DNA of 64,000 bases from NCBI GenBank assembly GCA_000806155.1, contig JWKX01000001.1, positions 739 to 64,738 on the forward strand. The letters run 5' to 3'. The notes below the pieces were generated by a model. It was not told where the DNA came from. It searched no databases and worked only from the letters and a program-made list of their open reading frames with translations. Source of the stretch: an archaeon GW2011_AR18 (lineage in GTDB: Archaea; Nanobdellota; Nanobdellia; SCGC-AAA011-G17; GW2011-AR18). Below are positions 9,374 to 60,211 of this stretch, piece by piece (within the stretch, counting starts at the first letter, position 1; each line of letters begins with the position of its first letter). The translations under genes were made by a program, and so were the position numbers.

Positions 9374-9646
9374 ATGAATTATTGGATAGATAGTTTTTTA
9401 AGCATAAAATTATTGATTAGTTTTATGAATAGAAACCAATGGTTAGTACTAAGCATAGGATTATTTTTAGCTGGTTCAATTTTAGTGAATTTTTCAATGT
9501 TTTGTGGTGGGTTTACTGATGAATTATTAACATCTTGTATGATACAAAGGTACGCTTTTGGCATCCCATCTATAATCATGGGTATATTAGGAGTCTTGTT
9601 TTTTATTATAGCATTGTTAGAACCTAAAAAGAAGAACTTAGATTAA
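9374..9646 (+). CDS. small hydrophobic ORF inside IS element (possibly spurious)
   Basis: 91 aa with two hydrophobic segments. It overlaps the 3' end of the transposase gene. Confidence 0.2.
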   Translation: MNYWIDSFLSIKLLISFMNRNQWLVLSIGLFLAGSILVNFSMFCGGFTDELLTSCMIQRYAFGIPSIIMGILGVLFFIIALLEPKKKNLD

Positions 9647-10478
9647 TCAAACTTAACCATTTATTCTGTCCTAGTTTTAATTCTATTAAGCTTTTCTGTG
9701 CTGGTGTTGTATTTATTCCTTGATGTATTCTTATGTAATTATACCACACTATTAGTAAATCTAGTATTGCTATTGCTGAATACTCTCTTTTTAGTCCACG
9801 CATTACTTTTACTCTTTCTCTTATTGTTCCTTGAACTCTCTCAATAATATTGTTTCTTTTATCCTTATCAGCTTTTAGTCTAGTATAACATTCTCTGTCT
9901 TGACTTTTCTTTTTCTTTCCCCATGTTTTACGATATGCTTTCATGTATGCTGGAAGTTTATCAGTAAATAATTTTATTGGTGGTTGTTTTACTTTCATGA
10001 AGAACTTTCTAGCTTCTTTACTGCTTCTCTTAGTTGAATAATGAGTAGCTACCAAAAACCTTGTTCTTGCATCTACAATATCCCAATAATAGTTCTGTTC
10101 ACCTTTACATTTTATGAATATCTCATCAGCATGATATACTCTGCTTAATTGAGGTTCTAAATTGTCTGTAAAAGATTTTATTAGTTTACTATACTTTATT
10201 AGCCATCTCCATACACTCATATGGCTCACTCCTTGAGGAGTAAACTGTCTAACATGACTTCTTATCTTTCTAAGGCTCATTCCATTAAAATACAAATCCA
10301 AACAAGATGTAATAAGTTCTTTTGATTTTCTCATATGATAAAAACCATCATTCAAAGTAAAGAACCTTTTACATTCTTTGCACTTATAACGTTGCTTAAT
10401 TCCGTTAAGTGTTTGCCTTTTAGACCATTTAACAATACTCTTAGAACCACAAAACCTACATTGTATATTCTCTTCCAT
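9624..10478 (-). CDS. IS6 family DDE transposase with N-terminal zinc finger
   Basis: YHADEIFIKCKGEQNYYWDIVDARTRFLV matches the IS6 DE...K..G...Y.W.A.D signature. N-terminal CxxC...CxxC as in archaeal IS6 transposases. C-terminal NNIIERVQGTIRER ... IRIHQG. Confidence 0.8.
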   Translation of the reverse strand: MEENIQCRFCGSKSIVKWSKRQTLNGIKQRYKCKECKRFFTLNDGFYHMRKSKELITSCLDLYFNGMSLRKIRSHVRQFTPQGVSHMSVWRWLIKYSKLIKSFTDNLEPQLSRVYHADEIFIKCKGEQNYYWDIVDARTRFLVATHYSTKRSSKEARKFFMKVKQPPIKLFTDKLPAYMKAYRKTWGKKKKSQDRECYTRLKADKDKRNNIIERVQGTIRERVKVMRGLKREYSAIAILDLLIVWYNYIRIHQGINTTPAQKSLIELKLGQNKWLSLINLSSSF

Positions 10479-10627
10479 AGAATATTATGGTACCGCCAGT
10501 TTATATATCTTACGGTACCATAATTATGGCGCAAAATACAACTTTATCTTTTATATAACTTATTTATCGTCTATTAACATTTTGCGCAAAACAAAGATTT
10601 AAATAGAAGAAAGGCTCTATTTTTAGC

Positions 10628-11695
10628 ATGACATGGGTAAAGCCAAAGGGACATTCTAAATCAAGAATCAATTGGGCAGGAGATGTTTTAATTAATACTG
10701 AATCCACTGAAGAAGAAAAAATACTTGCAATAGAAATATTAGACAATTGGAGAGCAATACACAGTTATCCAATGCACATTTTTAAGAAAAGATTAAAAGA
10801 AAAATCTCGACTTTTAGATAAGAACCTATTAACTGTTCAAAGACTTAAACGTGTTACTGCTATTCTAAATAAACTAAAAAGAACGCAAACAAGTACTATG
10901 AATCTTTCACAGATGCAAGATATTGGCGGTTGTAGAGCCGTCTTGTCTAACGTTGCCCTAGTGAGGGATTTACACGAGAAGTATTACTTAAAGGAAAATT
11001 TTAAGCATAAAAAAATGAAAACACAGGACTATATCTCTAATCCAAAAAATGATGGTTATAGAAGTCTTCATTTAATTTATAAGTATAATACTGATAGAAA
11101 AGGAAAAAAATACTATAATGGATTACTTATAGAAATTCAGATAAGGTCAAGGTTACAACACCTTTGGGCAACAGCAGTTGAAACAGTTGGCTTCTTTACA
11201 AGACAGGCAATTAAATCTAATGAAGGACATCCAGATTGGGCAGAATTTTTTAAATTGATTAGTTCAGCATTTGCTAAAATGGAGAATTGCCCATATGTTC
11301 CAGATACTCCACAAGATGAAAAAGAATTATATACTAAAATAAAAGAAAAAGAAAAAGCATTGAAAATTATAGATAAATTAAAAGCATGGACAAATACAAT
11401 GAGACTTTTAGATGAAAAGATTAAAGCTAAAGATAAACATAAGGTAGAGTTTTTCTTACTAGAATTAGATATTGTTGGTAGAAAATTAGGAATTTTAACC
11501 TATACAAAGGAACAAGAACAAAAAGCTATAGATGATTACTCTGCACTCGAAAAAAGACATAGTGGTGCGAAAGACTATGATGTAGTACTTGTCGGGGCAG
11601 ATACAAGTAAGGATTTGAAAAAAGCTTACCCTAATTATTTTTTAGATACTGGAGACTTCTTAATTTATCTCCAAAAAATTATTAACAAATATTAA
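10628..11695 (+). CDS. RelA/SpoT-homolog synthetase-domain protein (small alarmone synthetase / toxSAS-like), cargo of IS element
   Basis: RLKRVTAILNKLKR, DIGGCRAVL, DYISNPKNDGYRSLHLIY and IEIQIRSRLQHLWA match the nucleotidyltransferase motifs of the (p)ppGpp synthetase domain. There is a roughly 150 aa coiled-coil-rich C-terminal extension and no HD hydrolase domain. Confidence 0.75.
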   Translation: MTWVKPKGHSKSRINWAGDVLINTESTEEEKILAIEILDNWRAIHSYPMHIFKKRLKEKSRLLDKNLLTVQRLKRVTAILNKLKRTQTSTMNLSQMQDIGGCRAVLSNVALVRDLHEKYYLKENFKHKKMKTQDYISNPKNDGYRSLHLIYKYNTDRKGKKYYNGLLIEIQIRSRLQHLWATAVETVGFFTRQAIKSNEGHPDWAEFFKLISSAFAKMENCPYVPDTPQDEKELYTKIKEKEKALKIIDKLKAWTNTMRLLDEKIKAKDKHKVEFFLLELDIVGRKLGILTYTKEQEQKAIDDYSALEKRHSGAKDYDVVLVGADTSKDLKKAYPNYFLDTGDFLIYLQKIINKY

Positions 11696-11697
11696 TA

Positions 11698-11862
11698 CTA
11701 TTCTTTATCAATAATTATTCTGTGATTTTCAATCCTTGCTTTAAGTTCTTTTCCAAAAAAGTTGGACTGTTCTACAATATCTTTAGGTAAATTCAGAATA
11801 TACTTTGAATATTCTTTATTGTCTACCTTCTTTGATAGTACCTTTATTATTTTCATAATCAT
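11698..11862 (-). CDS. small AbrB/SpoVT-like ORF (54 aa), candidate antitoxin
   Basis: Manually translated: MIMKIIKVLSKKVDNKEYSKYILNLPKDIVEQSNFFGKELKARIENHRIIIDKE. Resembles swapped-hairpin antitoxins (VapB/MazE-like). Convergent with the RSH gene and inside the IS. Confidence 0.35.
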   Translation of the reverse strand: MIMKIIKVLSKKVDNKEYSKYILNLPKDIVEQSNFFGKELKARIENHRIIIDKE

Positions 11863-11925
11863 TTAATGTACAACCAGTATTTATATTTTTCTGTACCATA
11901 AAAAATTTTTAAGTTTTTCATCTAT

Positions 11926-11947
11926 CAACCTTTTAAGTTACAGAACC
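11926..11947 (-). repeat. right terminal inverted repeat of IS6-like element
   Basis: CAACCTTTTAAGTTACAGAACC, the exact reverse complement of the left IR. Confidence 0.8.
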
Positions 11948-11955
11948 CTTATTTT
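11948..11955 (+). repeat. target site duplication (right copy) CTTATTTT
   Basis: Identical 8-mer immediately outside both inverted repeats. Confidence 0.7.
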
Positions 11956-11960
11956 AAAGT

Positions 11961-12383
11961 TTATTCTGCTATTAAGTTTCCGTATCCCATTCCCATTGAG
12001 CATGAGAATTTGTATGTTCCTGGTTTTTTTATTGTTAGTTCCAATGTATCTGTGCTTGATATTAAATACTCCGATATTCCTAAACTTCTTATTGTGAATG
12101 CTCTATAGCATCCTGTTACACTGTCATCTAATGTTATGCTTATTTTCTGTCCTGCTTTTACTCTTATCTGATTTGGATAATAATTATAGTTCTTGAAACC
12201 TATTACAATATTTTGCACATCAGCTGTTTCTTCATTTATATTATTTTCATTGACAGGAATTTCTTTTTCAGTATTAGTGAATATAAAATATCCTCCTATT
12301 ATTATGATTATTATTATGCCTAATATTACTGTTGTATTCTTCATTGGAATATTCCACCTCTTGGGCCGTAGATTATTATCCAT
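11961..12383 (-). CDS. cupredoxin-like domain protein with N-terminal signal anchor
   Basis: YYPNQIRVKAGQKISITL ... GTYKFSCSMGMG resembles the small-blue-copper / EfeO-like cupredoxin fold. Adjacent to the copper ATPase cluster. Confidence 0.45.
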   Translation of the reverse strand: MDNNLRPKRWNIPMKNTTVILGIIIIIIIGGYFIFTNTEKEIPVNENNINEETADVQNIVIGFKNYNYYPNQIRVKAGQKISITLDDSVTGCYRAFTIRSLGISEYLISSTDTLELTIKKPGTYKFSCSMGMGYGNLIAE

Positions 12384-13024
12384 GTTGTTATTGAGATTAA
12401 TACTATTGTAAATATTATTGTAAATAGGTGATCATCTTTTTTCTCTCTCTCAGTTTCTTTTGTCTCATTATATACCATGTAATTTAGTTTTATCATTATT
12501 ATTGAACTTATTATAAATATTAGTATTCCAGCAGTTTTTAGATGGTCATTTAATAGCATGACTGATGTCATTGCTCCCATCAATCCTCCCATGAATCCTG
12601 CCATTATTCCTTCCATTGATCCCATTATCCCGCAGGATTTTCCTGTCCATACCCCTATTATTATTCCTATTATTACACCTAAGAATCCTCCGTAGAACAT
12701 TCCATTTGTTGAAGCAACATAAAATCCTATTAAAAATGATGATAACATGCCTAATGTCATTCCTATCATCATCCCGCTCATGCATGGGAATTCTTTGTAT
12801 GCTCTTACCTGTCTTATTGCAGGTGTTATTATTGCATAGCTTAAAGCACTAAAAAATAAATAAAATCCATATTTTGGTATTATGCTCTCTATTGTTTTTA
12901 ATTTCAGATAATATGCTATAAATAAGAAGATGAATGATGTTAATAAAGAATAGAACATTGTTATTAGTAATTCTCCCTCTACTCTATTGCCGTTTAATTC
13001 TTTTACAAAATTTTTGAATGCCAT
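12341..13024 (-). CDS. Met-rich polytopic membrane protein (putative copper-handling)
   Basis: Multiple GM/MxxM repeats (GMMIGMTLGM, MGSMEGIMAGFMGGLMGAM) within TM helices. Located between copA and the cupredoxin gene. Confidence 0.5.
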   Translation of the reverse strand: MAFKNFVKELNGNRVEGELLITMFYSLLTSFIFLFIAYYLKLKTIESIIPKYGFYLFFSALSYAIITPAIRQVRAYKEFPCMSGMMIGMTLGMLSSFLIGFYVASTNGMFYGGFLGVIIGIIIGVWTGKSCGIMGSMEGIMAGFMGGLMGAMTSVMLLNDHLKTAGILIFIISSIIMIKLNYMVYNETKETEREKKDDHLFTIIFTIVLISITTWIIIYGPRGGIFQ

Positions 13025-13025
13025 T

Positions 13026-14970
<1,945 letters not shown>

Positions 14971-14978
<8 letters not shown>

Positions 14979-15189
14979 ACTCCAGTTTTGTTGCTGTATA
15001 TCCCGCTTTTTTTACTGCATTTTTTATATCTTCTTCTTTGACATTGTCTTCAATTTCAGCATATCCTTTTTTCATTATCACATTTACTCTTATATTTTTT
15101 ATTCCGTTTATTTTAGATAGGCTTTTCTCTATATTTGAAGCACATGATGCACAATGCATTCCTTGTATGTAGATTACTATTTTTTTCAT
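14971..15189 (-). CDS. copZ: heavy-metal-associated (HMA) domain copper chaperone
   Basis: GMHCASCASNIEKSL = GMxCxxC metal-binding motif. 72 aa, overlapping the copA start. Confidence 0.85.
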
Positions 15190-15419
15190 TTTTTTCCACC
15201 CAATTGTTTAATTAACCAAATTATAAACAATATTAGAGCTGCTGCAAAAAGAGTCATTAATAACCATCCAAATAATGGCATATATCCAAATCCTGAATAA
15301 AATCCTCCCATCATCCCATAGTTTCTAAAACCCATCATTCCATAACCTCCAAATAATGGTATTATAAATATTAAGATTATTGTTAAAATAATTATTATTG
15401 TCACGTTTTCATTTTTCAT
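15186..15419 (-). CDS. small Gly/Met-rich membrane protein
   Basis: 77 aa. GGYGMMGFRNYGMMGGFYSGFGYM between two hydrophobic helices. Co-oriented in the cop cluster. Confidence 0.4.
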   Translation of the reverse strand: MKNENVTIIIILTIILIFIIPLFGGYGMMGFRNYGMMGGFYSGFGYMPLFGWLLMTLFAAALILFIIWLIKQLGGKK

Positions 15420-15421
15420 TT

Positions 15422-15619
15422 TTATTCCTTATTTTTTATATTAAATGCTGTATGTATCCAGCACCATCCTATGAAACTCTCTATTAATGCTATTATTCCA
15501 ATAATTGTAATTATCCAGTTTATCCATATTGTATTAAATTCTGGTCTGAATGGTCCTAATAGCCAGAATGCTAAAGCAAATCTTAATACCCTGTCAGTTT
15601 TTCCTAAGTTTTTTTTCAT
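15422..15619 (-). CDS. DUF2892 family (YgaP-like) membrane protein
   Basis: MKKNLGKTDRVLRFALAFWLLGPF ... IGWCWIHTAFN matches the DUF2892 pattern. 65 aa. Confidence 0.6.
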   Translation of the reverse strand: MKKNLGKTDRVLRFALAFWLLGPFRPEFNTIWINWIITIIGIIALIESFIGWCWIHTAFNIKNKE

Positions 15620-15993
15620 TTTTTTACCTCTTTGTTTTTTGTTTTACCATGCAGTATATGCACGCAATATTGTGACATGTGTTCATCTATTAGCTCCATC
15701 AATGGGTTTATTGTCTTTTTGTTTAGTTTATAATATCTGTATTTTCCTTCTATCTCTGATTTTACAAAACCACATTTTTTTAATCTTGCTAGATCATGTG
15801 ATACTGCTGTCTGATTCATTCCTAATTCTTTGATTATCTGTGTAACATTCTTTTTTTCTTTTCTCAGCATATTTATTATTCTTAGTCTTGGTTCTGACAC
15901 TAATGTTCCAAAGAATATTTTATAGCTTCCGTAGATATCTTTCTCACTAAGACAATGTTCATGTGATTTTCCCAGCATATTTTTAGTTATCAT
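15616..15993 (-). CDS. ArsR/SmtB family metalloregulator
   Basis: wHTH region LSEPRLRIINMLRKEKKNVTQIIKELGMNQTAVSHDLARLKKCGFV. First gene of the minus-strand cop cluster. Confidence 0.8.
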   Translation of the reverse strand: MITKNMLGKSHEHCLSEKDIYGSYKIFFGTLVSEPRLRIINMLRKEKKNVTQIIKELGMNQTAVSHDLARLKKCGFVKSEIEGKYRYYKLNKKTINPLMELIDEHMSQYCVHILHGKTKNKEVKK

Positions 15994-16276
15994 ATGAGAA
16001 AGCGATACATATAAGTATTTAAAGTTTATTATAAAAAATAGTATTATTTAATTACATTATTTTATGATAATTGTGCAAAAACAACTCTCTGAAAATGTTT
16101 TGTAATCTCAGTGCTTTTTTGAGTGTGTTTTTTCTCCTGACATCCAGATATTTTTGATTATATGGCTCGTTTTCCATGTTTTTTACTCCTTCTTTGGTTT
16201 TCCGAAGATATAAGCTCTGTAGTCATGTTGTTGCCAAAACCCAAAATTTATAAATAAATCACAATATCGAGGTTAT

Positions 16277-16506
16277 AGACGCCAAGGTTTTGTTGCCTTT
16301 GCTTTTTTCTGTTTGTTTAGTTCTTTTGAACCTTATTGGATTGTTTTATTTCATCTGAGCATTTTGTTTGTGCCAGATATTTTTGTGCTACCATGTTTAC
16401 TTTTGTCAACAAGCTATAATGCTTGTAAAATGTTTTATAAGACTATAATGGATATAAAGTATTTAAGCTCTTCCAAGTTTTTTGTAACCTTGGTGCCATT
16501 GTATAT
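16277..16506 (+). ncRNA. candidate structured ncRNA A (unknown family)
   Basis: TATA-like box at about 16254-16261, then AGGTTATAGACGCCAAGGTT at the predicted start. A 12-nt terminal helix GACGCCAAGGUU/AACCUUGGUGCC (one mismatch) closes a roughly 230-nt region. No convincing ORF inside. Confidence 0.3.
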
Positions 16507-16579
16507 AAAATAACAGATGCTATTGAGAAGTGGTTTTTTGTATAGCAACATTTAAATAATGTTCAAACTCTATTTTTAT

Positions 16580-16834
16580 ATGGCTAAAAAAGTAAAAGTA
16601 AGTGAAGATGAAATGTATGCAACAATCATGGCTAAGATTGGTGAATTAAAAAAATCTGTTGAAAAATTTGAAGAAAATTTTAGAAAATATGGTAGATCAA
16701 TGTTAGGTCCCGCTGCATCTGGGCAATCAGCTGAAATAGTTAAAGGTCAAGCAAGTAGCATAGCAGTTCAAGCCGCAGAATTTAGTGATTACGTGCAAGA
16801 GGTTAAAGTTATAAATCCCCATTTGGATAATTAG
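16580..16834 (+). CDS. small hypothetical protein
   Basis: ORF beginning MAKKVKVSEDEMY with a TATA-like box about 60 nt upstream. Confidence 0.35.
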   Translation: MAKKVKVSEDEMYATIMAKIGELKKSVEKFEENFRKYGRSMLGPAASGQSAEIVKGQASSIAVQAAEFSDYVQEVKVINPHLDN

Positions 16835-17053
16835 TTCTATATTTTTATGTTTTCATGTTTGTGGTCTTGTTTGTTCTACAAAGTTTATATAGTAAATTTC
16901 CCAATAATCTAATAAGTTAAAAAAATGAAAGGTGAAACAAAGAAAACAAAAATTTAGAAAAAAATAGAAGAGAATGTTCCTTACAAGACATTTAATACTT
17001 GTAGAACAAAAGACCTCACATAGCGTTAATTTTATAAATAAAACCAAATCCGT

Positions 17054-17231
17054 AGGTTACAGACGCCAAGGTCGCCTAACCTGGTATGGCACAGGATTGC
17101 TATAATAGTTTTGCAATCATCCTGCGTCCGCAAGGACTTGGGGGTTCAAAAATCATTTAAAGCACTATCAAGAATTAAGCTGTAAATGTTTGATAGTCCC
17201 CCTCTTGGCGTTTTTCTTTTTATATAACGCC
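17054..17231 (+). ncRNA. candidate structured ncRNA B (paralog of A by 5' motif; unknown family)
   Basis: TATA-like box 17032-17045, then AGGTTACAGACGCCAAGGTC. The 5' ACGCCAAG pairs perfectly with CTTGGCGT at 17215-17222, followed by a T-run. Internal hairpins include CAGGATTGC...GCAATCATCCTG and GTCC-GCAA-GGAC (GNRA loop). Confidence 0.35.
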
Positions 17232-17265
17232 TGTTTTGGTAGAACGTTTACTTTTTAAGTAACGC
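17211..17265 (+). repeat. 55-bp exact direct repeat copy 1 (promoter/operator module)
   Basis: CCCTCTTGGCGTTTTTCTTTTTATATAACGCCTGTTTTGGTAGAACGTTTACTTT is identical to 19949-20003. It contains the palindrome GGCGTT/AACGCC around a TTTATATA box. Confidence 0.85.
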
Positions 17266-17427
17266 CCAAGGGAGAACGTTGGTATGATGTTTTTGTTCTT
17301 AATTTGTGTGCACGTTGTACGTGCAGACATTATATATTGTTAAAACAGAGTTTTTCATAGGAGAAAAAATGCTTGAGAAAAACTGTTTATATATTCATAA
17401 AAAGTAATAAATATGGGTATTCTTATA

Positions 17428-19163
17428 TTATTCTTATGAAGTATTATTTATTGTTAGTTTTTATAGTTGTTTTTCTAGTTTCTTGTAGCAATAATAATTT
17501 AAAAAATTTTAGTTATTGTCAGGGAGATAATGATACTAATGAATATATTGAGTTTTCTTGTCAGAAGGTTGTTAATAATTCCTGTATTGTTTCATTAAGT
17601 GATTATAAGCCTTGTAATCTTACTGATTTAACTTTTGTTGTTGTTGGTTATAGTTCCTTGAATCCTTCTCAGGGTAATTTTATTAATATTAGTGCTTTTG
17701 TTGTAAGTAGAGGTCCTTCTTTTAATGATAATTTTGGTATTTCATTTTATGTTAATATTTCTTATCCTGATGGATCTGTTGTTAATGAATTAATTTCTAG
17801 ACAAGAACATAGTATAGTAAAAGTTTCTAATGAATCATTATGGGGTAGTAATACAGTTTGGAAAGATTATGAAGGATATCATTATGGTGAGAATGGTTTT
17901 GTAATGATAAATGCTTCATATAAAATAAAAGGTTATGGTTTTCATCAGTTTTATGAAGTGTTAGATGAAGATAATAAGATAATTGAAGCTAATGAAAATA
18001 ATAATTTTTATTCTAGAAAAATGTTCGTTAATCCAGTAAGTGCTTTTATTAATATTACAGGTGTTTTTAATGATTATAATAAAACTGGTAGTATTGATAA
18101 GAATGTTTTTGATTATTTAAAAAAGGTAGTTTATTGTAATAGTATTATTGATTGTGATATTAACACTTTTTTTATTACTAAAAAAGAGATTAAAAAAATT
18201 AAGGATTATTTAATTATAGATATTAATTTTACAAAGCCTTCTAATGAAGAATTTTCTGTTATGATAGATAATTTTTTTAATAATACTTATTGTTTTAATA
18301 AAGCCGATAATAAGTTATGGTATGATGAATATTATAAGATAGATAATCCATATAGGTATGAAGAAGTTGATATTGGAAGGATTTATGATAATAATTGTAA
18401 TGATTTTAATATTTCATATAAAGATACAATTTGGCGTTATAAGAGACTTTCTCCAAATCCAGGCTTAACTCTTATGAAGATAGAAAGTAATATTACACAA
18501 TCAATATTGATTAATGCTATAAATTATTATAATAAGAATACAATATATAATATGGTCTTGAATTATTCAATATTTAAAGTTAATGATAATTATATAATAC
18601 ACACTATAGAGACAGATGCTATTACTATTAAGGATAAAAGATTGTGTTATGATAGTCCATTATTTTATGAAGTATATAAAGTTAATAAGGAAGATAAAAT
18701 ATTAACAAGGATTAATACAGTATATACAAATGAAACAATTAATAATTGTGATAAAAAAGATATCACTCCAACGCTTAATAATATAAAGTTTTCTTATAAT
18801 CTAAGTATAATAAAATGTCCAGAGTTCACAGATGTAAAAAAGATTAATTTAATTGGAGATGAGTATATAGAACTATTAGAACAACAAGGGGATAACCTAT
18901 TTGATAATATGCTTGATTACACAATTAATGGTAACAATGTAGAATTATGGACTGCTGCTGGGAAAGGAACACCATGTAATAATGTTAAATACTATATATC
19001 AAAAGAAAAAAATGACATTCACATAAATAGAGAAGATTTAGGATATGAAGGTGCATGTGTTCAAGTAGTTAGCAGTGATTGTTTGGATATTAAAATGACA
19101 TTACCTATAGGAAAATATAATATTTATATGATAAGTATGAATAAATCAATAGAAATAAAATGA
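17428..19163 (+). CDS. secreted Asn/Tyr-rich protein with lipobox-like signal peptide
   Basis: MKYYLLLVFIVVFLVSCSNN is a signal peptide with LVSC. 578 aa, low complexity, no catalytic motifs. The ORF track extends to 17373 with a TTG. Confidence 0.55.
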
Positions 19164-19370
19164 AGAATTCTCTAAAGACTTTCTCTGAAACTGCAGAGAC
19201 TATTGAAGAAGTTAAGGTTATATATGAAAAAATAGAAAAAGAAAAAATATTATGGAAACAAGCGAAACTATAATTTAGTCATGGTTCTAATAAAGTTCAT
19301 TTGAGTTTTTAGAAAATTATTCAATATTTTTACAGTTAAGTATTTAAACTCTTATACCTATTATATCTTT

Positions 19371-19592
19371 ATGAAAACTAAGAGAACTTTTAATGTTGTT
19401 ATAGAGCAAGGAGAAGATGGTTATCTCATTTCTAGTGTAGTTGAACTTCCTGGTTGTCATACTCAAGCTAAAACATTAGATCAGTTGATGGAAAGAACAA
19501 AAGAGGTTATATCATTATACCTAAAATGCAAAGATCCTGTAGATACAGAAGTTAAGTTCATAGGTTTACAGAAAGTAGAAGTCGAGGCTTAG
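19371..19592 (+). CDS. hicB: HicB family antitoxin (UPF0150)
   Basis: FNVVIEQGEDGYLISSVVELPGCHTQAKTLDQLMERTKEVISLYL matches HicB/UPF0150. Confidence 0.8.
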   Translation: MKTKRTFNVVIEQGEDGYLISSVVELPGCHTQAKTLDQLMERTKEVISLYLKCKDPVDTEVKFIGLQKVEVEA

Positions 19593-19595
19593 ATA

Positions 19596-19823
19596 ATGAA
19601 TAAAGTTCCACTCTTGACAGCAAGAGAAGTGATTAAAATTCTTAAGAAAATGGGTTTTGAATTAAAAAGACAGGAAGGAAGTCATATGTTTTTTGAACAT
19701 CATGATGGAAGGACAACAACAATACCAAACCATCCTGGAGAAGAATTAGATCGTGGATTATTAAACAAAATAATCAAGCATGACCTACAAGTAACAAGAG
19801 AAGAATTTATGGGATATGTATAA
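19596..19823 (+). CDS. hicA: HicA family mRNA interferase toxin
   Basis: GFELKRQEGSHMFFEHHDGRTTTIPNHPGEELDRGLLNKIIK matches HicA (YcfA-like). 4 nt after hicB. Confidence 0.8.
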   Translation: MNKVPLLTAREVIKILKKMGFELKRQEGSHMFFEHHDGRTTTIPNHPGEELDRGLLNKIIKHDLQVTREEFMGYV

Positions 19824-19948
19824 TTTTAGTTCTTGCTACTTTTTGGCAGCATCGTTATTTTTATATATTACTTAAACTATATTTGTTATTATGAAAAGTC
19901 TCTGTATTAATCATATGTTTTAAGAACCGATGCATTATACCTGGCTTT

Positions 19949-20003
19949 CCCTCTTGGCGTTTTTCTTTTTATATAACGCCTGTTTTGGTAGAACGTTTAC
20001 TTT
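19949..20003 (+). repeat. 55-bp exact direct repeat copy 2 (promoter/operator module)
   Basis: Identical to 17211-17265. Lies about 85 nt upstream of the AbrB-family antitoxin gene. Confidence 0.85.
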
Positions 20004-20088
20004 GACATTCTAAACCAATAAATACAAAAGTTTTATATAGTTAGTAAGATATATCTTACTTGTGGAAGCTGAGATTGATATAACAACA

Positions 20089-20334
20089 ATGAGTTCTAAG
20101 GGACAGATAGTTATACCTAGTAGTATGCGTAAAGATTTTGAAGAGGGAGAAAAGTTTATTATAATAAAGAAAGATAAGAAGTTTATTCTTAAAGAACTTA
20201 AATCGTTAAGCAAGACTTTAGAGGAAGACTTAATTTTTGCTAAAAGAACTGAAGAAGCTTTAGAAAGACATTCTAAGGGACAGTTTAAATCAAGCACTAA
20301 AGAAGATTTTTTGAAAGAACTTGACAAATGGTAG
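20089..20334 (+). CDS. SpoVT/AbrB-family antitoxin
   Basis: MSSKGQIVIPSSMRKDFEEGEKFII is a swapped-hairpin DNA-binding domain. Overlaps the downstream RelE-like gene by 7 nt. Confidence 0.7.
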   Translation: MSSKGQIVIPSSMRKDFEEGEKFIIIKKDKKFILKELKSLSKTLEEDLIFAKRTEEALERHSKGQFKSSTKEDFLKELDKW

Positions 20335-20579
20335 TTGAACATATAGATAGAGATATTCATTTCGAGAAATTATTCCAAAAATTAGATGGTTCAATTAAAG
20401 ATAAAGTGAAGAAGCAGATAATAAAGATTATTGAAAATCCAGAAATTGGAAAACCAATGAGGTATACAAGAAAAGGAACTAGAGAGGTGTATGTTAAACC
20501 TTATAGATTATCATATCTTTATTTAGAAGAGGAAAATAAGATAATATTCCTAGATTTATACCATAAGGATGAACAATAG
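20328..20579 (+). CDS. RelE/ParE family toxin
   Basis: 83 aa. GKPMRYTRKGTREVYVKPYRLSYLYLEEENKIIFLDLYHKDEQ is typical of the RelE/YoeB fold C-terminus. Confidence 0.75.
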   Translation: MVVEHIDRDIHFEKLFQKLDGSIKDKVKKQIIKIIENPEIGKPMRYTRKGTREVYVKPYRLSYLYLEEENKIIFLDLYHKDEQ

Positions 20580-20591
20580 GTTTTTGTTTTT

Positions 20592-21794
20592 TTAGAAATT
20601 CTTTAATATCTTTTTAACTTCTTCTACAAATGTTTGTGCTTCCTCTTCTGTATTATACAGGTATAGTGATGCTCTTACGCTTCCATCTATTTTTCTTGAA
20701 TTATACCAGCTGTGCACACAATGTCTTCCGCTTCTTGTTAATATGTTCTTTGAACTATCTAATATGTTTGCTATATCATGATTATTCATTCCTTTTATAT
20801 TGAATGAGTATATTGAACTTCTTTTCTCAGCTTCTTTTGGTCCTATCAGTTCTATTTTATCACTATCTAATCCTTCTGTTATTATCTTATTTAATTTTAT
20901 CTCATGTTTTTCTATTTTTTCTAATCCTATTTTTTTCAAGTATATTATTGCCTCTCCTAATCCTATTATTCCTGCATAATCCTGCAATCCTGCTTCATAT
21001 TTCATTGGTAATTCTTCTATTGTATATGAATCATATGTTGAATCAGTAACTGTGCTTCCACCTACATTATATTGTTCATTTTCTTCTAATAATTCTTTTT
21101 TTCCGTATAATATTCCTGTTCCTGTTGGTCCTAGCATTTTATGTCCTGAAAATAATAAATAATCTATATCTAAGTCTTTTACATCTATCTCTTTTGATGG
21201 AGCTAGTTGTGCTGCATCTGCTATTATTTTTATATTTTTTTTATGCAGTATTTTTGTTATCTCTTTTATTGGGTTTGTAACTCCATCTATGTTTGATCTA
21301 TACACTATTGATGCTATTTTTGTTTTTTCTGTTATTGAATCTTCTAAATTCTCTATATTGAATGTATTATCAGGATTTGTTTTTATTATCTTTAATTTTA
21401 TTCCTTGTTTTCTTAATTTTAGCCATGGTATCAGGTTTGAATTATGTTCTTTGTCTGTTATTAATACCTCATCCTCTTTTTTTAGCCCTATTGTATCTGC
21501 TAAGAGATTTATTCCCTCTGTTGTATTTCTTGTGAATATTATCTCTTCCTGTTTTTTTGCATTTATGAATTTTTTAACTTCCTCTCTTGTCTTATTTACT
21601 TCAGTTATGACTCTTTCTGCTAGTTGATGTGAACTTCTTCCAGAACATGCTGTATACTCTTTATAATACTCATTTATTTTTTCTATTACCTGCACTGGCT
21701 TTAATGACATGCATGCACTGTCTAGATATATTATTTTATTATTTAATATTGGAAAATCTTTTCTTATCTTGTTTACATCATATCCTAGTATCAT
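20592..21794 (-). CDS. sufS: cysteine desulfurase (SufS/CsdA-like, class V aminotransferase)
   Basis: FSGHKMLGPTGTGILYG PLP lysine motif, RSGRHC near the C-terminus. 400 aa. Confidence 0.85.
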   Translation of the reverse strand: MILGYDVNKIRKDFPILNNKIIYLDSACMSLKPVQVIEKINEYYKEYTACSGRSSHQLAERVITEVNKTREEVKKFINAKKQEEIIFTRNTTEGINLLADTIGLKKEDEVLITDKEHNSNLIPWLKLRKQGIKLKIIKTNPDNTFNIENLEDSITEKTKIASIVYRSNIDGVTNPIKEITKILHKKNIKIIADAAQLAPSKEIDVKDLDIDYLLFSGHKMLGPTGTGILYGKKELLEENEQYNVGGSTVTDSTYDSYTIEELPMKYEAGLQDYAGIIGLGEAIIYLKKIGLEKIEKHEIKLNKIITEGLDSDKIELIGPKEAEKRSSIYSFNIKGMNNHDIANILDSSKNILTRSGRHCVHSWYNSRKIDGSVRASLYLYNTEEEAQTFVEEVKKILKNF

Positions 21795-41595: not shown

Positions 41596-41705
41596 CGCCC
41601 TGGCCGAGATTTGAACTCGAGTTATGACCTTTCGTTGACAAAACATTATATAAAATAAAGCTTCATCTCGACAGGGTCAGGTGCTGACCGCTACACTACC
41701 AAGGC
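41596..41705 (-). tRNA. tRNA-Asp (GTC) with canonical-position intron (~38 nt)
   Basis: GCCTTGG-TA-GTGT-AGCGGTCA-GCAC-C-TGACC-CTGTCG[intron]A-GGTCA-TAAC-TCGAG-TTCAAAT-CTCGG-CCAGGGC-G. Confidence 0.75.
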
Positions 41706-59782: not shown

Positions 59783-60048
59783 TAGTAGGCACGCCCAAGA
59801 GTGGATACACTAATCTTCACAGGTTGAGTCCTAATCTTTCCTCTACCCCGCTACCCTGTAAGCGTTATCTTGAATGCTTATTGTTGCTTTGTTCCCAATC
59901 TCACAAGTTTCACAATCAAAACAACCAGACAGGACAGGATATCACTGTAGTTATTAGGGCCTGCAAAAATTAATGCATCGCCTCTTGGACTTCGACTCCA
60001 TCTAAGACCGTTTATGGTTACAGGTGCGGCCTAAACACCCAGCCTAGC
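59783..60048 (-). ncRNA. ffs: candidate signal recognition particle RNA (7S RNA)
   Basis: Minus-strand reading contains the Alu-domain-like GGGUGUUUAGGCCGCACCUGUAACC (UGUAAC motif). A helix-8-like GUUGUUUUG ... CAAAGCAAC contains AGCA. Termini pair (UAGGC/GCCUA). No ORF is coherent across the region, and there are T-runs at both ends. Confidence 0.45.
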
Positions 60049-60211
60049 TTTTTTTAGTCCGAATGAGAATGGATATTTGTCTTCTGTTCCTTCCTCGCTT
60101 AATATCATTGTCTTATGTCCTTTAAATTCTCCTGTTTTTGCTGTCATTTTATTTTTCTCCTTATGATTTTATTTAAGTTTTAAATTTAGTAGATTATTAT
60201 ATACTTTATGA

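What the first reader, a model, noticed from the sequence alone, without database searches (positions are those of the whole stretch)
16277..17291. Recurring ACGCCAAGG motif and two paralogous structured transcripts
Two TATA boxes (16254 and 17035) are each followed at the predicted start by AGGTTAYAGACGCCAAGGT. In both cases the ACGCCAAGG segment can pair with a downstream CTTGG(C/T)GY (16493-16504; 17215-17222) to close a roughly 230-nt and a roughly 170-nt domain. The second ends in a U-tract and contains a GNRA hairpin. The same 8-mer or its complement recurs inside both 55-bp repeats, and again as TAACGCCCAAGGG at 17270. In the 55-bp repeat the GGCG can pair either with the upstream ACGCC or with the downstream AACGCC across the TATA box, which are mutually exclusive structures. 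This looks like a small family of ncRNAs or leaders, or a regulator operator reused six or more times.
Basis: seen in the sequence. Interest (0 to 1): 0.55.

Follow-up and report, generated by a model that had tools for sequence, protein, structure and literature searches.

The report
Two-intron tRNA-Ser gene with integration scars
The "structured RNA" is a serine tRNA gene split by two introns, which standard tRNA finders miss, and the recurring ACGCCAAGG motif is simply the two ends of that gene, copied as direct repeats when mobile DNA inserted at both ends.

Summary
The sequence features are real, but they are not a new ncRNA family or a reused operator. Window 17065-17210 is a tRNA-Ser(GCU) gene with two introns. 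One is a canonical 16-nt intron at 37/38. The other is a 46-nt intron in the T-loop at about 59/60. ARAGORN and Rfam miss the unspliced gene. After removal of the T-loop insert, ARAGORN calls tRNA-Ser(gct) and finds the 16-nt intron itself, with 0 calls in 65 controls.

The 19-mer AGGTTAYAGACGCCAAGGT is the 5' leader plus tRNA nucleotides 1-8. Its upstream copy (16233-16288) is a displaced promoter plus 5' fragment, and it bounds a 784-bp insertion. The exact 55-bp repeat (17200-17254 and 19949-20003) is the tRNA 3' end plus downstream sequence, and it bounds a 2.7-kb insertion.

A related DPANN contig has one promoter copy and lacks most of both inserted segments. In relatives, a tyrosine-recombinase operon always sits next to the tRNA 5' end, and one relative has a second integrase just after the 3' end.

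Verdict: an intron-containing tRNA used as a two-ended integration hotspot. It is a new member of known kinds and of modest interest.

The parts
16052..16177 (-). Truncated remnant (41 codons) of the 142-aa ORF that forms an operon with a tyrosine recombinase in relatives. It is the right end of 5'-side element 'A'.
   Evidence: tblastn with the L094 143-aa protein gives 64% identity over 39 aa, E = 2.7e-10, at 16061-16177. The full operon is seen in L019, L094, L095 and L097.
16233..16288 (+). Displaced promoter plus 5' leader plus tRNA nucleotides 1-8. It is the 5' tDNA fragment and upstream attachment-site copy. TATA is at 16247-16258, the 19-mer at 16270-16288 and GCCAAGGT at 16281-16288.
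   Evidence: It is 100% identical over 56 nt to L072, where it is joined to the tRNA body. L070 and L072 share the left flank and diverge exactly after ...GCCAAGGT. It is one arm of the 45-nt direct repeat.
16289..17027 (+). Inserted segment ('element B' remnant): an AT-rich untranslated stretch plus an 84-aa ORF (16580-16834) of unknown function.
   Evidence: It is absent from L019 and L069, which join the promoter directly to the tRNA. In L005 and L070 the same left end continues into a zinc-ribbon ORF and TrbC/T4SS-pilin genes. The fold is not significant and the 84-aa ORF has no Pfam match.
17028..17064 (+). Active promoter (TATA 17031-17042) and short 5' leader of the tRNA gene. This is the second copy of the 45-nt repeat.
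   Evidence: L094 has a similar promoter and leader in front of its tRNA-Ser(GCU).
17065..17210 (+). tRNA-Ser(GCU) gene. Exon 1 is 17065-17102 (anticodon GCT at 17099-17101), intron 1 is 17103-17118 (16 nt, 37/38), exon 2 is 17119-17150, intron 2 is 17151-17196 (46 nt, T-loop about 59/60) and exon 3 is 17197-17210 (G73 = 17210).
   Evidence: ARAGORN calls tRNA-Ser(gct) on the in-silico spliced sequence. A deletion scan gives 28 of 28 calls as Ser(gct) with ARAGORN's own 16-nt intron, and 65 controls give none. Homologues keep the exons 96-100% identical while the introns vary. The arms fold as expected.
17211..17221 (+). T-tracts (TTTTTCTTTTT) that act as the archaeal terminator of the tRNA transcript.
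   Evidence: Read directly from the sequence.
17200..17254 (+). 55-bp repeat, copy 1. It covers the T-stem 3' strand, the acceptor 3' strand, G73 and 44 nt downstream, and is the attachment-site copy at the intact tRNA. It contains the inverted repeat GGCGTT (17207-17212) and AACGCC (17226-17231).
   Evidence: Exact repeat with sharp boundaries.
17255..19948 (+). 3'-side island 1 (decayed). It holds TAACGCC...AGAACGTT repeats, a conserved palindrome at 17309-17325, a 12-codon integrase-start remnant at 17369-17407, a 596-aa cysteine-rich lipoprotein-like ORF (17373-19163), a 37-aa ORF, HicB (19371-19592) and HicA (19596-19823).
   Evidence: Window 17304-20016 has no counterpart in L019. Window 17300-17385 aligns with the region upstream of, and including the start of, the L094 293-aa integrase.
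19949..20003 (+). 55-bp repeat, copy 2. It is the displaced 3' tDNA fragment and marks the boundary between island 1 and island 2.
20004..20596 (+). 3'-side island 2: a MazE-like antitoxin (20062-20334) and a ParE-like toxin (20328-20579). A possible decayed attachment-site remnant (GGTTTTTGTTTTTT) lies at about 20579-20593.
   Evidence: Pfam matches are. In L019 the same module is followed by a 20-nt copy of the tRNA 3' end (CCTCTTGGCGTTTTTATTTT, L019 1741-1760) just before the cysteine desulfurase gene.

Best explanation
Window 17065-17210 is a gene for tRNA-Ser(GCU) in an AT-rich DPANN-type archaeon. It is transcribed from the TATA box at 17031-17042 and ends at the T-tracts at 17211-17221. 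The precursor carries two introns, 16 nt at the canonical 37/38 position and 46 nt in the T-loop. Each is presented in a bulge-helix-bulge-like fold for the archaeal splicing endonuclease, and splicing leaves an 84-nt class-II tRNA.

The gene is an integration hotspot at both ends.

5' side. An element family encoding a 142-aa protein and a tyrosine recombinase recombines within AGACGCCAAGGT, which is the end of the leader plus tRNA nucleotides 1-8. The element brings its own promoter and leader for the tRNA. A second insertion at that site displaced the earlier promoter and 5' fragment to 16233-16288 and later decayed to 784 bp.

3' side. Elements recombine at the junction of T-stem and acceptor stem or just past the 3' end. 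This left the exact 55-bp repeats around a decayed 2.7-kb island (lipoprotein-like ORF and HicAB), followed by a second small island (MazE/ParE).

Shown: the tRNA identity, the repeats, the insertions relative to relatives, the precise breakpoints, and the integrase association in relatives. Inferred: actual splicing, the order of events, which integrase acted at which site, and the exact crossover positions.
For: tRNA identity:
- ARAGORN calls tRNA-Ser(gct) on the spliced sequence. It shows a 7-bp acceptor stem (GCCAAGG/UCUUGGC), U8, a D-loop with GG, the anticodon loop UUGCUAA, a long variable arm, the T-loop UUCAAAU and G73.
- With only the T-loop insert deleted (any 44-47-nt deletion starting at 17147-17155), ARAGORN -i gives 28 of 28 calls as tRNA-Ser(gct) and finds the 16-nt intron itself.
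- The same scan on 25 shuffles and 40 random window regions gives 0 calls.
- Homologues in L019, L010 and L094 are all called tRNA-Ser(gct) after splicing. Exons are 96-100% identical, while introns differ in length (14-18 nt and 32-48 nt) and sequence.
- The anticodon arms fold as stem, short helix, 3-nt bulge. The T arms fold as T-stem, 6x6 internal loop, intron helix.

Repeats and insertions:
- Direct repeats of 45 nt and 55 nt are found.
- L019 and L069 have one promoter copy directly on the tRNA. They have no counterpart of 17304-20016, which includes the second copy of the 55-bp repeat.
- L070 and L072 share the left flank and diverge exactly after tRNA nucleotide 8.
- In L005 and L070 the displaced 5' fragment leads into T4SS-pilin genes.
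- L010 diverges from the window from the anticodon-loop intron onward and has an unrelated downstream flank.

Integrases:
- The 142-aa ORF and tyrosine-recombinase operon lies divergently next to a class-II tRNA gene in L019, L094, L095 and L097.
- The same promoter and leader is joined to a different tRNA in L097.
- L094 has a second integrase (PF00589) directly after the tRNA 3' end. Its upstream region and start codon align with window 17300-17385.

Precedents: 5'-half targeting with tRNA expression from an element promoter (PMC8371274); 159 of 3919 Islander islands carry 5' fragments (PMC4383910).
Against: - No integrase gene lies inside either insertion in the window. The islands are therefore decayed or were mobilised in trans.
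- The two 45-nt repeat copies are only 80% identical, with an exact block of 12 nt.
- No complete 5'-side element with both ends was recovered, because the contigs are too short.
- The T-loop intron shows only a relaxed bulge-helix-bulge. Its central helix is 3 Watson-Crick pairs plus a U-U in the window, and RNAfold leaves it open.
- The Rfam tRNA model gives no hit on the unspliced gene even at E <= 10.
- The L010 variant has a U-U mismatch in the T-stem.
- There are no expression or splicing data.
Confidence: 0.85

Rival explanations
1. One reading: two paralogous structured small RNAs or 5' leaders sharing a 5' module, or a regulator-binding site reused many times.
For: The shared promoter and 19-mer are real and far above chance. 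The second region is significantly structured. No Rfam family matches.
Against: The second region is a tRNA. The first region shares only the promoter, the leader and 8 nt of tRNA, has no significant fold, and is absent from L019. Every motif copy maps to a tRNA end or a duplicate of one. Breakpoints fall exactly at the tRNA boundary.
Confidence: 0.04
2. The locus is a tRNA-derived relic. On this view the two-intron 'gene' is a non-functional pseudogene kept only as an attachment site, and the cell's functional tRNA-Ser(GCU) is encoded elsewhere.
For: A T-loop intron of 46 nt is unusual, and its bulge-helix-bulge is relaxed. Standard finders miss the gene. The L010 variant has a T-stem mismatch.
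Against: Exons are 100% identical between the window and L019, while the flanks are 88-92% identical and the introns differ. Exons are still 96% identical in L094, whose neighbouring 143-aa protein is only 71% identical. The promoter and terminator are intact. The T-loop intron keeps the same architecture with different sequences in four homologues.
Confidence: 0.07
3. An integron-like platform: a resident recombinase next to a promoter and attachment site captures integrase-less cassettes (the toxin-antitoxin modules and the lipoprotein), each bounded by a short repeat.
For: In L019 the recombinase is divergent from the promoter. The downstream segments have no integrase, carry toxin-antitoxin pairs and are separated by repeats.
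Against: The repeats are tRNA 3' fragments, not palindromic attC-like sites, and the second copy has no inverted partner. L094 has an ordinary integrase immediately downstream of the tRNA, and the window keeps the homologous upstream region and start codon. This points to decayed classical islands.
Confidence: 0.04

Closest known systems
Archaeal tRNA genes with multiple or non-canonical bulge-helix-bulge introns (Thermoproteales, Nanoarchaeota, ARMAN; reviews PMC4033280 and PMC4090602; epsilon2 endonuclease of ultrasmall archaea, PMC3239211)
   Same: It has a canonical 37/38 intron and a second intron elsewhere in the cloverleaf. Both sit in bulge-helix-bulge-like folds. The exons are conserved while the introns are free to vary. 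Default tRNA finders miss the gene.
   Different: The host is a groundwater DPANN lineage labelled Nanoarchaeota or Woesearchaeota. The second intron is a 32-48-nt insert in the T-loop. Splicing and the type of endonuclease were not examined.
Genomic islands in tRNA genes (Islander definition, PMC4383910; Williams 2002 sublocations)
   Same: An intact tRNA gene is accompanied by a displaced fragment in the same orientation, with the 3' fragment downstream and the 5' fragment upstream. The arrangement is tandem. The crossover lies at the junction of T-stem and acceptor stem or at the 3' end. One relative (L010) suggests an anticodon-loop crossover.
   Different: The window's islands have lost their integrase genes and are very small (0.6-2.7 kb), so they would fail Islander's integrase filter, and two of them also its 2-kb length filter.
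pTN3-like integrases (with TKV4 and MVV) that target the 5' half of archaeal tRNA genes (review PMC8371274)
   Same: The element sits upstream of the tRNA and replaces its 5' end, and the restored tRNA is transcribed from an element-borne promoter. The review's rule that target switching stays within a tRNA class fits here, since the same element type sits next to two different class-II tRNAs.
   Different: Here only about 8 nt of the tRNA, plus leader and promoter, are replaced. The recombinase gene appears intact in L094 and L095 and lies, behind the 142-aa ORF, outside the attachment site. It is co-transcribed with a conserved 142-aa partner of unknown function. Homology to pTN3 integrases was not tested.
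Caldiarchaeum subterraneum tRNA-Thr locus (Sugahara et al. 2012, PMC3293823)
   Same: A 5' tRNA fragment lies upstream of a two-intron tRNA gene and is separated from it by inserted DNA. Intron content differs within the population. In that study a mobile element was proposed as the carrier of tRNA introns.
   Different: The lineage and the tRNA differ. Here both ends are used, and several allelic 3' parts with different introns are visible (window, L010, L072, L094).

Membership tests
tRNA (class II, serine acceptor, anticodon GCU) | Cloverleaf with a 7-bp acceptor stem, D arm, anticodon arm and T arm, recognised by a tRNA finder | tested here: met
   ARAGORN calls tRNA-Ser(gct) on the spliced sequence and after a single T-loop deletion with its own intron call. 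The 65 controls give 0 calls.
tRNA (class II, serine acceptor, anticodon GCU) | Conserved nucleotides: U8, G18-G19 in the D-loop, U33, purine 37 and a UUCRANY T-loop | tested here: met
   Read from the sequence and the ARAGORN drawing: U8 at 17072, D-loop UAACCUGGUAU, anticodon loop UUGCUAA and T-loop UUCAAAU.
tRNA (class II, serine acceptor, anticodon GCU) | Long variable arm and G73 discriminator. I recall these as serine identity elements in archaea; this is from my own knowledge and was not checked in a paper. | tested here: met
   The variable arm is GUCC-GCAA-GGAC (17126-17137) and G73 is at 17210.
tRNA (class II, serine acceptor, anticodon GCU) | Match to the Rfam tRNA covariance model RF00005 | tested here: not met
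   There is no hit on the unspliced gene at the gathering score or at E <= 10. The spliced sequence could not be submitted to that tool. The 46-nt T-loop insert is the likely reason.
tRNA (class II, serine acceptor, anticodon GCU) | Purifying selection on exons relative to introns and flanks | tested here: met
   Exons are 100% identical to L019 and 96% identical to L094. Introns differ in length and sequence.
tRNA (class II, serine acceptor, anticodon GCU) | Expression, splicing, CCA addition and aminoacylation | not testable with these tools
   No transcriptome or biochemical data are available.
Archaeal bulge-helix-bulge introns | Two 3-nt bulges separated by a 4-bp helix at the splice sites | tested here: inconclusive
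   Intron 1: by inspection, helix UUGC/GCAA with bulges UAU and UCA gives splice sites at 37/38, and RNAfold predicts the helix and the 3' bulge. Intron 2: by inspection, U55-C56-A57 pairs with UGA between bulges AAA and AGU, and the helix is a perfect 4 bp in L010. RNAfold leaves this as a 6x6 internal loop.
Genomic island in a tRNA gene (Islander criteria) | Intact tRNA gene plus a cognate end fragment in the same orientation and on the correct side | tested here: met
   The 5' fragment lies upstream (16281-16288 with promoter and leader). The 3' fragment lies downstream (19949-19959 within the 55-bp repeat). Both are in the same orientation as the gene.
Genomic island in a tRNA gene (Islander criteria) | A tyrosine integrase gene inside the island | tested here: not met
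   No integrase is found in the window (tblastn). Only a 12-codon start remnant and a 41-codon remnant of the partner ORF remain. Integrases are present in relatives L019, L094, L095 and L097.
Genomic island in a tRNA gene (Islander criteria) | Unoccupied and occupied alleles with breakpoints at the repeat | tested here: met
   L072 (unoccupied) and L070 (occupied) diverge exactly after tRNA nucleotide 8. L019 has a single promoter copy.
pTN3-like integrases that target the tRNA 5' half | The attachment site lies in the 5' part of the tRNA and the tRNA is expressed from an element promoter | tested here: met
   The same promoter and leader travels with the 142-aa/recombinase operon and is joined to two different tRNAs (L019 and L097).
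pTN3-like integrases that target the tRNA 5' half | SSV-type integrase whose gene is split on integration, and sequence homology to pTN3 integrases | not tested
   The recombinase genes of L094 and L095 appear intact and lie outside the attachment site. No comparison with pTN3 integrase was made.
Integron | Cassettes bounded by palindromic attC sites | tested here: not met
   The second copy of the 55-bp repeat has no inverted partner nearby, and the repeats are tRNA 3' fragments.

The most novel reading that the evidence does not exclude
DPANN archaea may carry a previously undescribed family of integrative, possibly conjugative, elements. These encode a tyrosine recombinase co-transcribed with a conserved 142-aa partner, and some also carry TrbC/T4SS-pilin genes. 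They insert at the very 5' end of class-II tRNA genes and supply a replacement promoter. Together with 3'-end and anticodon-loop integrators, they would make one tRNA-Ser gene a three-site hotspot. The exchange of attachment-site halves would also move tRNA introns between alleles, giving natural population-level support for the 'mobile element as intron vector' model.
Probability: 0.45. Interest if true: 0.45.

Novelty: new member of a known kind. Interest (0 to 1): 0.3.

Why it matters
- Annotation: an essential-type tRNA gene is invisible to ARAGORN and to the Rfam tRNA model because of a long T-loop intron. tRNA sets of DPANN genomes assembled from metagenomes may therefore be under-called, and GC-rich 'orphan structured RNAs' in such genomes should be tested for split tRNAs before being treated as new.
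- Biology: the locus shows tRNA-targeted integration at both gene ends, with a promoter supplied by the element on the 5' side. It also shows alleles of one tRNA that differ mainly in their introns. This bears on how archaeal tRNA introns spread.
- Neither point overturns current understanding.

Tried and rejected
- Rfam at the gathering score over the whole window, and at E <= 10 over 15900-17500 and 17045-17230. Nothing relevant was found.
- ARAGORN on the window and on the raw region with the intron option. It found 0 genes.
- RNase P RNA, by inspection. No P4 or CR-I-like motifs were seen and the RNA is too short, so this was dropped.
- Retron msr-msd, IS110 bridge RNA and TnpB/IscB guide RNA, each suggested by a terminal helix next to a mobile gene. 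They were dropped because there is no RT, no DEDD recombinase and no TnpB next to the RNA, and because the tRNA reading accounts for every helix.
- Integron attC or attI. Rejected because there are no palindromic cassette sites.
- Collection scans with the 17-19-mer. In species-representative genomes, 54 of 55 hits were chance matches in GC-rich bacteria and only L019 was related. In metagenome contigs, 3 of 10 hits were related. In viral contigs, 0 of 8 were related.
- A look-up of the 84-aa ORF. It returned only the same genomic context.
- A search for the far end (second repeat) of complete 5'-side elements in L094, L095 and L097. Only chance 14-16-mers were found.
- The anticodon of the second tRNA (L097). 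It could not be assigned, because deletion scans gave conflicting calls.
Full report
**Setting.** The window is about 29% G+C. It carries an archaeal SRP RNA and an intron-containing tRNA. Near-identical contigs come from groundwater metagenomes (Rifle, Hainich). The closest named relatives are genomes assembled from metagenomes and labelled Nanoarchaeota or Woesearchaeota, that is, DPANN archaea.

On the minus strand upstream of the finding lies a metal-resistance operon: ArsR-family regulator, YgaP-like protein, HMA protein and P-type ATPase. Downstream lie a 596-aa cysteine-rich lipoprotein-like ORF, HicB/HicA, MazE/ParE and then a cysteine desulfurase on the minus strand.

**The observation.**
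- The two promoter-plus-19-mer copies are real. TTTATAAATAAA lies at 16247-16258 and 17031-17042, and AGGTTAYAGACGCCAAGGT lies at 16270-16288 and 17054-17072. Together they form a 45-nt direct repeat of 80% identity.
- ACGCCAAGG occurs twice, against 0.02 expected.
- The second region folds significantly better than shuffles (z = -3.1). The first does not (z = -1.2).
- An exact 55-bp direct repeat with sharp edges lies at 17200-17254 and 19949-20003. It contains the complement of the motif with one mismatch.
- Rfam finds nothing in the region, even at E <= 10.

**What the structured RNA is.** Reading the helices as a cloverleaf gives the following parts.

| Part | Sequence or position |
|---|---|
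| Acceptor stem | GCCAAGG (17065-17071) with UCUUGGC (17203-17209) |
| U8 | 17072 |
| D arm | GCC-UAACCUGGUAU-GGC |
| Anticodon stem | CAGGA / UCCUG |
| Anticodon-stem interior | 23 nt |
| Long variable arm | GUCC-GCAA-GGAC |
| T stem | GGGGG / CCCCC |
| T-stem interior | 53 nt |
| Discriminator | G73 at 17210 |
| Terminator | T-tracts after 17210 |

Removing 16 nt (17103-17118) leaves the anticodon loop UUGCUAA. Removing 46 nt (17151-17196) leaves the T-loop UUCAAAU.

- ARAGORN calls the resulting 84-mer tRNA-Ser(gct).
- To limit circularity I scanned every single deletion of 20-60 nt across 17045-17230 with ARAGORN's intron option. All 28 positive constructs were tRNA-Ser(gct) with ARAGORN's own 16-nt intron. 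All had a 44-47-nt deletion starting at 17147-17155.
- The same scan gave no call in 25 shuffles of the region or in 40 random window regions.

**Introns.** For intron 1, the exon sequence UUGC pairs with the intron sequence GCAA next to the anticodon stem. This leaves 3-nt bulges UAU and UCA whose second/third-nucleotide junctions are exactly the 37/38 splice sites. RNAfold predicts that helix and the 3' bulge in all four homologues.

For intron 2, U55-C56-A57 can pair with UGA just before the 3' splice site, between the bulges AAA and AGU. RNAfold leaves this as a symmetric 6x6 internal loop between the T stem and an intron helix. The same architecture appears with different intron sequences in L019 and L094, and the central helix is a perfect 4 bp in L010. 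I class intron 2 as a relaxed bulge-helix-bulge by inspection, not as proven.

Multi-intron tRNAs and non-canonical intron positions are well documented in archaea. Broad-specificity endonucleases are known from ultrasmall archaea (PMC4033280, PMC4090602, PMC3239211).

**Conservation.** tRNA-Ser(GCU) homologues in L019, L010 and L094 are all called Ser(gct) after splicing. Exons are 100% (L019) to 96% (L094) identical, while the introns are 14-18 nt and 32-48 nt long and diverge in sequence. The flanks of L019 are only 88-92% identical to the window, and the protein next to the L094 tRNA is 71% identical to its L019 counterpart. This is the pattern expected of a functional intron-containing tRNA.

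**What the repeats are.** The 19-mer is the 5' leader (AGGTTAYAGAC) plus tRNA nucleotides 1-8. The 55-bp repeat is the last three T-stem nucleotides, the acceptor 3' strand, G73 and 44 nt of downstream sequence. These are a 5' tRNA-gene fragment lying upstream and a 3' fragment lying downstream, both in the gene's orientation. That is the signature of integration into a tRNA gene (PMC4383910).

Comparative evidence:
- L019 and L069 carry one promoter copy joined directly to the tRNA, so the window's 16289-17072 (784 bp) has no counterpart there. Window 17304-20016, which includes the second copy of the 55-bp repeat, also has no counterpart there.
- L070 and L072 share about 175 nt of left flank and the 56-nt module 16233-16288. 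They diverge exactly after ...GCCAAGGT, into the tRNA body in L072 and into the inserted DNA in L070.
- In L005 and L070 the inserted DNA continues into a zinc-ribbon ORF and TrbC/T4SS-pilin genes. The window's 784 bp is therefore a remnant of a larger element.
- L010 is identical to the window through exon 1. From the anticodon-loop intron onward it differs: other introns, another variable loop and an unrelated downstream flank. This is what a crossover at the anticodon loop would produce.
- In L019 the MazE/ParE module is followed by a 20-nt copy of the tRNA 3' end just before the cysteine desulfurase gene. The window has only a degenerate trace there.

**Recombinases.** The window has none. 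It does retain a 41-codon remnant (16052-16177, minus strand) of a 142-aa ORF (E = 2.7e-10).

In L019, L094, L095 and L097 that ORF overlaps, and is followed by, a tyrosine recombinase (PF00589). The pair always lies divergently next to a class-II tRNA gene. In L097 the same promoter and leader as the window's upstream copy is joined to a different tRNA, with acceptor stem GCCGUCA/UGACGGC. The promoter therefore travels with the element, not with the tRNA.

L094 also has a second integrase starting about 190 nt after the tRNA 3' end. Its upstream region, a conserved palindrome and its start codon align with window 17300-17385, where the reading frame stops after 12 codons. The window's islands are thus decayed versions of integrase-bearing elements.

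[quoted passage not shown] It is described for pTN3-like integrases in Thermococcales and 'seldom' in bacteria (PMC8371274). In Islander, 159 of 3919 islands carry 5' fragments. The closest single precedent is the Caldiarchaeum tRNA-Thr locus, where a 5' tRNA fragment lies 1.8 kb upstream of a two-intron tRNA and the population is heterogeneous in intron content (PMC3293823).

This case differs from those in five ways:
- the lineage (DPANN);
- the very short tRNA portion replaced (about 8 nt);
- the 142-aa partner gene;
- an apparently unsplit recombinase gene;
- use of both gene ends.

**Verdict.** The finding is explained by known biology. One tRNA-Ser(GCU) gene with two introns sits between attachment-site duplicates of its own ends, left by mobile elements that have since decayed. 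It is not a new RNA family or a regulatory motif. The remaining interest lies in the missed tRNA annotation, the 5'-targeting element family in DPANN and the intron-swapping alleles.

Noticed in passing
L095 8736-9483 (minus strand; GCA_016179945.1, Woesearchaeota genome assembled from a metagenome): The class-II tRNA next to the 142-aa/integrase operon has its 5' part (GCCGCGAUAGCUUAACAUGGUAUGGCAC...) separated from its 3' part (variable arm, intact T arm, UGGCGGC-G) by roughly 760 nt. That insert contains a 225-aa LAGLIDADG_3 ORF. It may be a tRNA intron carrying a homing endonuclease. The acceptor stem has one G-G mismatch.
   Followed up: partly
window 41596-41705 (-): A second intron-containing tRNA (41-nt intron) is found by Rfam (44 bits) but not by the ARAGORN tool, which reports 0 tRNAs in the whole 64-kb window.
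   Followed up: no
window 59783-60054 (-): Archaeal SRP RNA (RF01857, 123.9 bits), with many non-canonical pairs relative to the model.
   Followed up: no
L019 1-332 (-), L069 2390-2650, L097 2526-3296: The tyrosine recombinase next to the tRNA has an in-frame TAA after ...KKQDIDFNRM in three Hainich assemblies, and the reading frame continues intact afterwards. It is either a pseudogene or a recoded stop.
   Followed up: no
window 17225-17248 and 17260-17281: Two direct copies of TAACGCC-N(8-9)-AGAACGTT lie just downstream of the tRNA. L097 has an analogous pair (TAACGTCCC twice) and L094 has repeated ACGCC motifs. These may be arm-type binding sites of the 3'-side attachment region.
   Followed up: partly
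window 17309-17325: The palindrome TGCACGTTGTACGTGCA is conserved with L094 upstream of its 293-aa integrase. It may be an operator of the lost integrase gene.
   Followed up: partly
window 16061-16071 and 9624-15993: The 142-aa ORF is truncated where the ArsR / copper-ATPase operon begins. Further upstream are an IS6/IS240-family transposase (9624-10478, minus strand) and a RelA/SpoT-domain gene (10628-11695). The metal-resistance block may itself be an insertion that removed the recombinase.
   Followed up: no
window 16473-16500: tCCAAGttttttgTAACCTtGGTgcCA resembles tRNA positions 2-25 (GCCAAGGTCGCCTAACCTGGTATGGCA). The similarity was not tested statistically.
   Followed up: no
L097 3506-5965: The element next to the second tRNA carries two DNA methylases (PF00145, Dam) and a reverse-transcriptase-domain ORF (RVT_1).
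   Followed up: no
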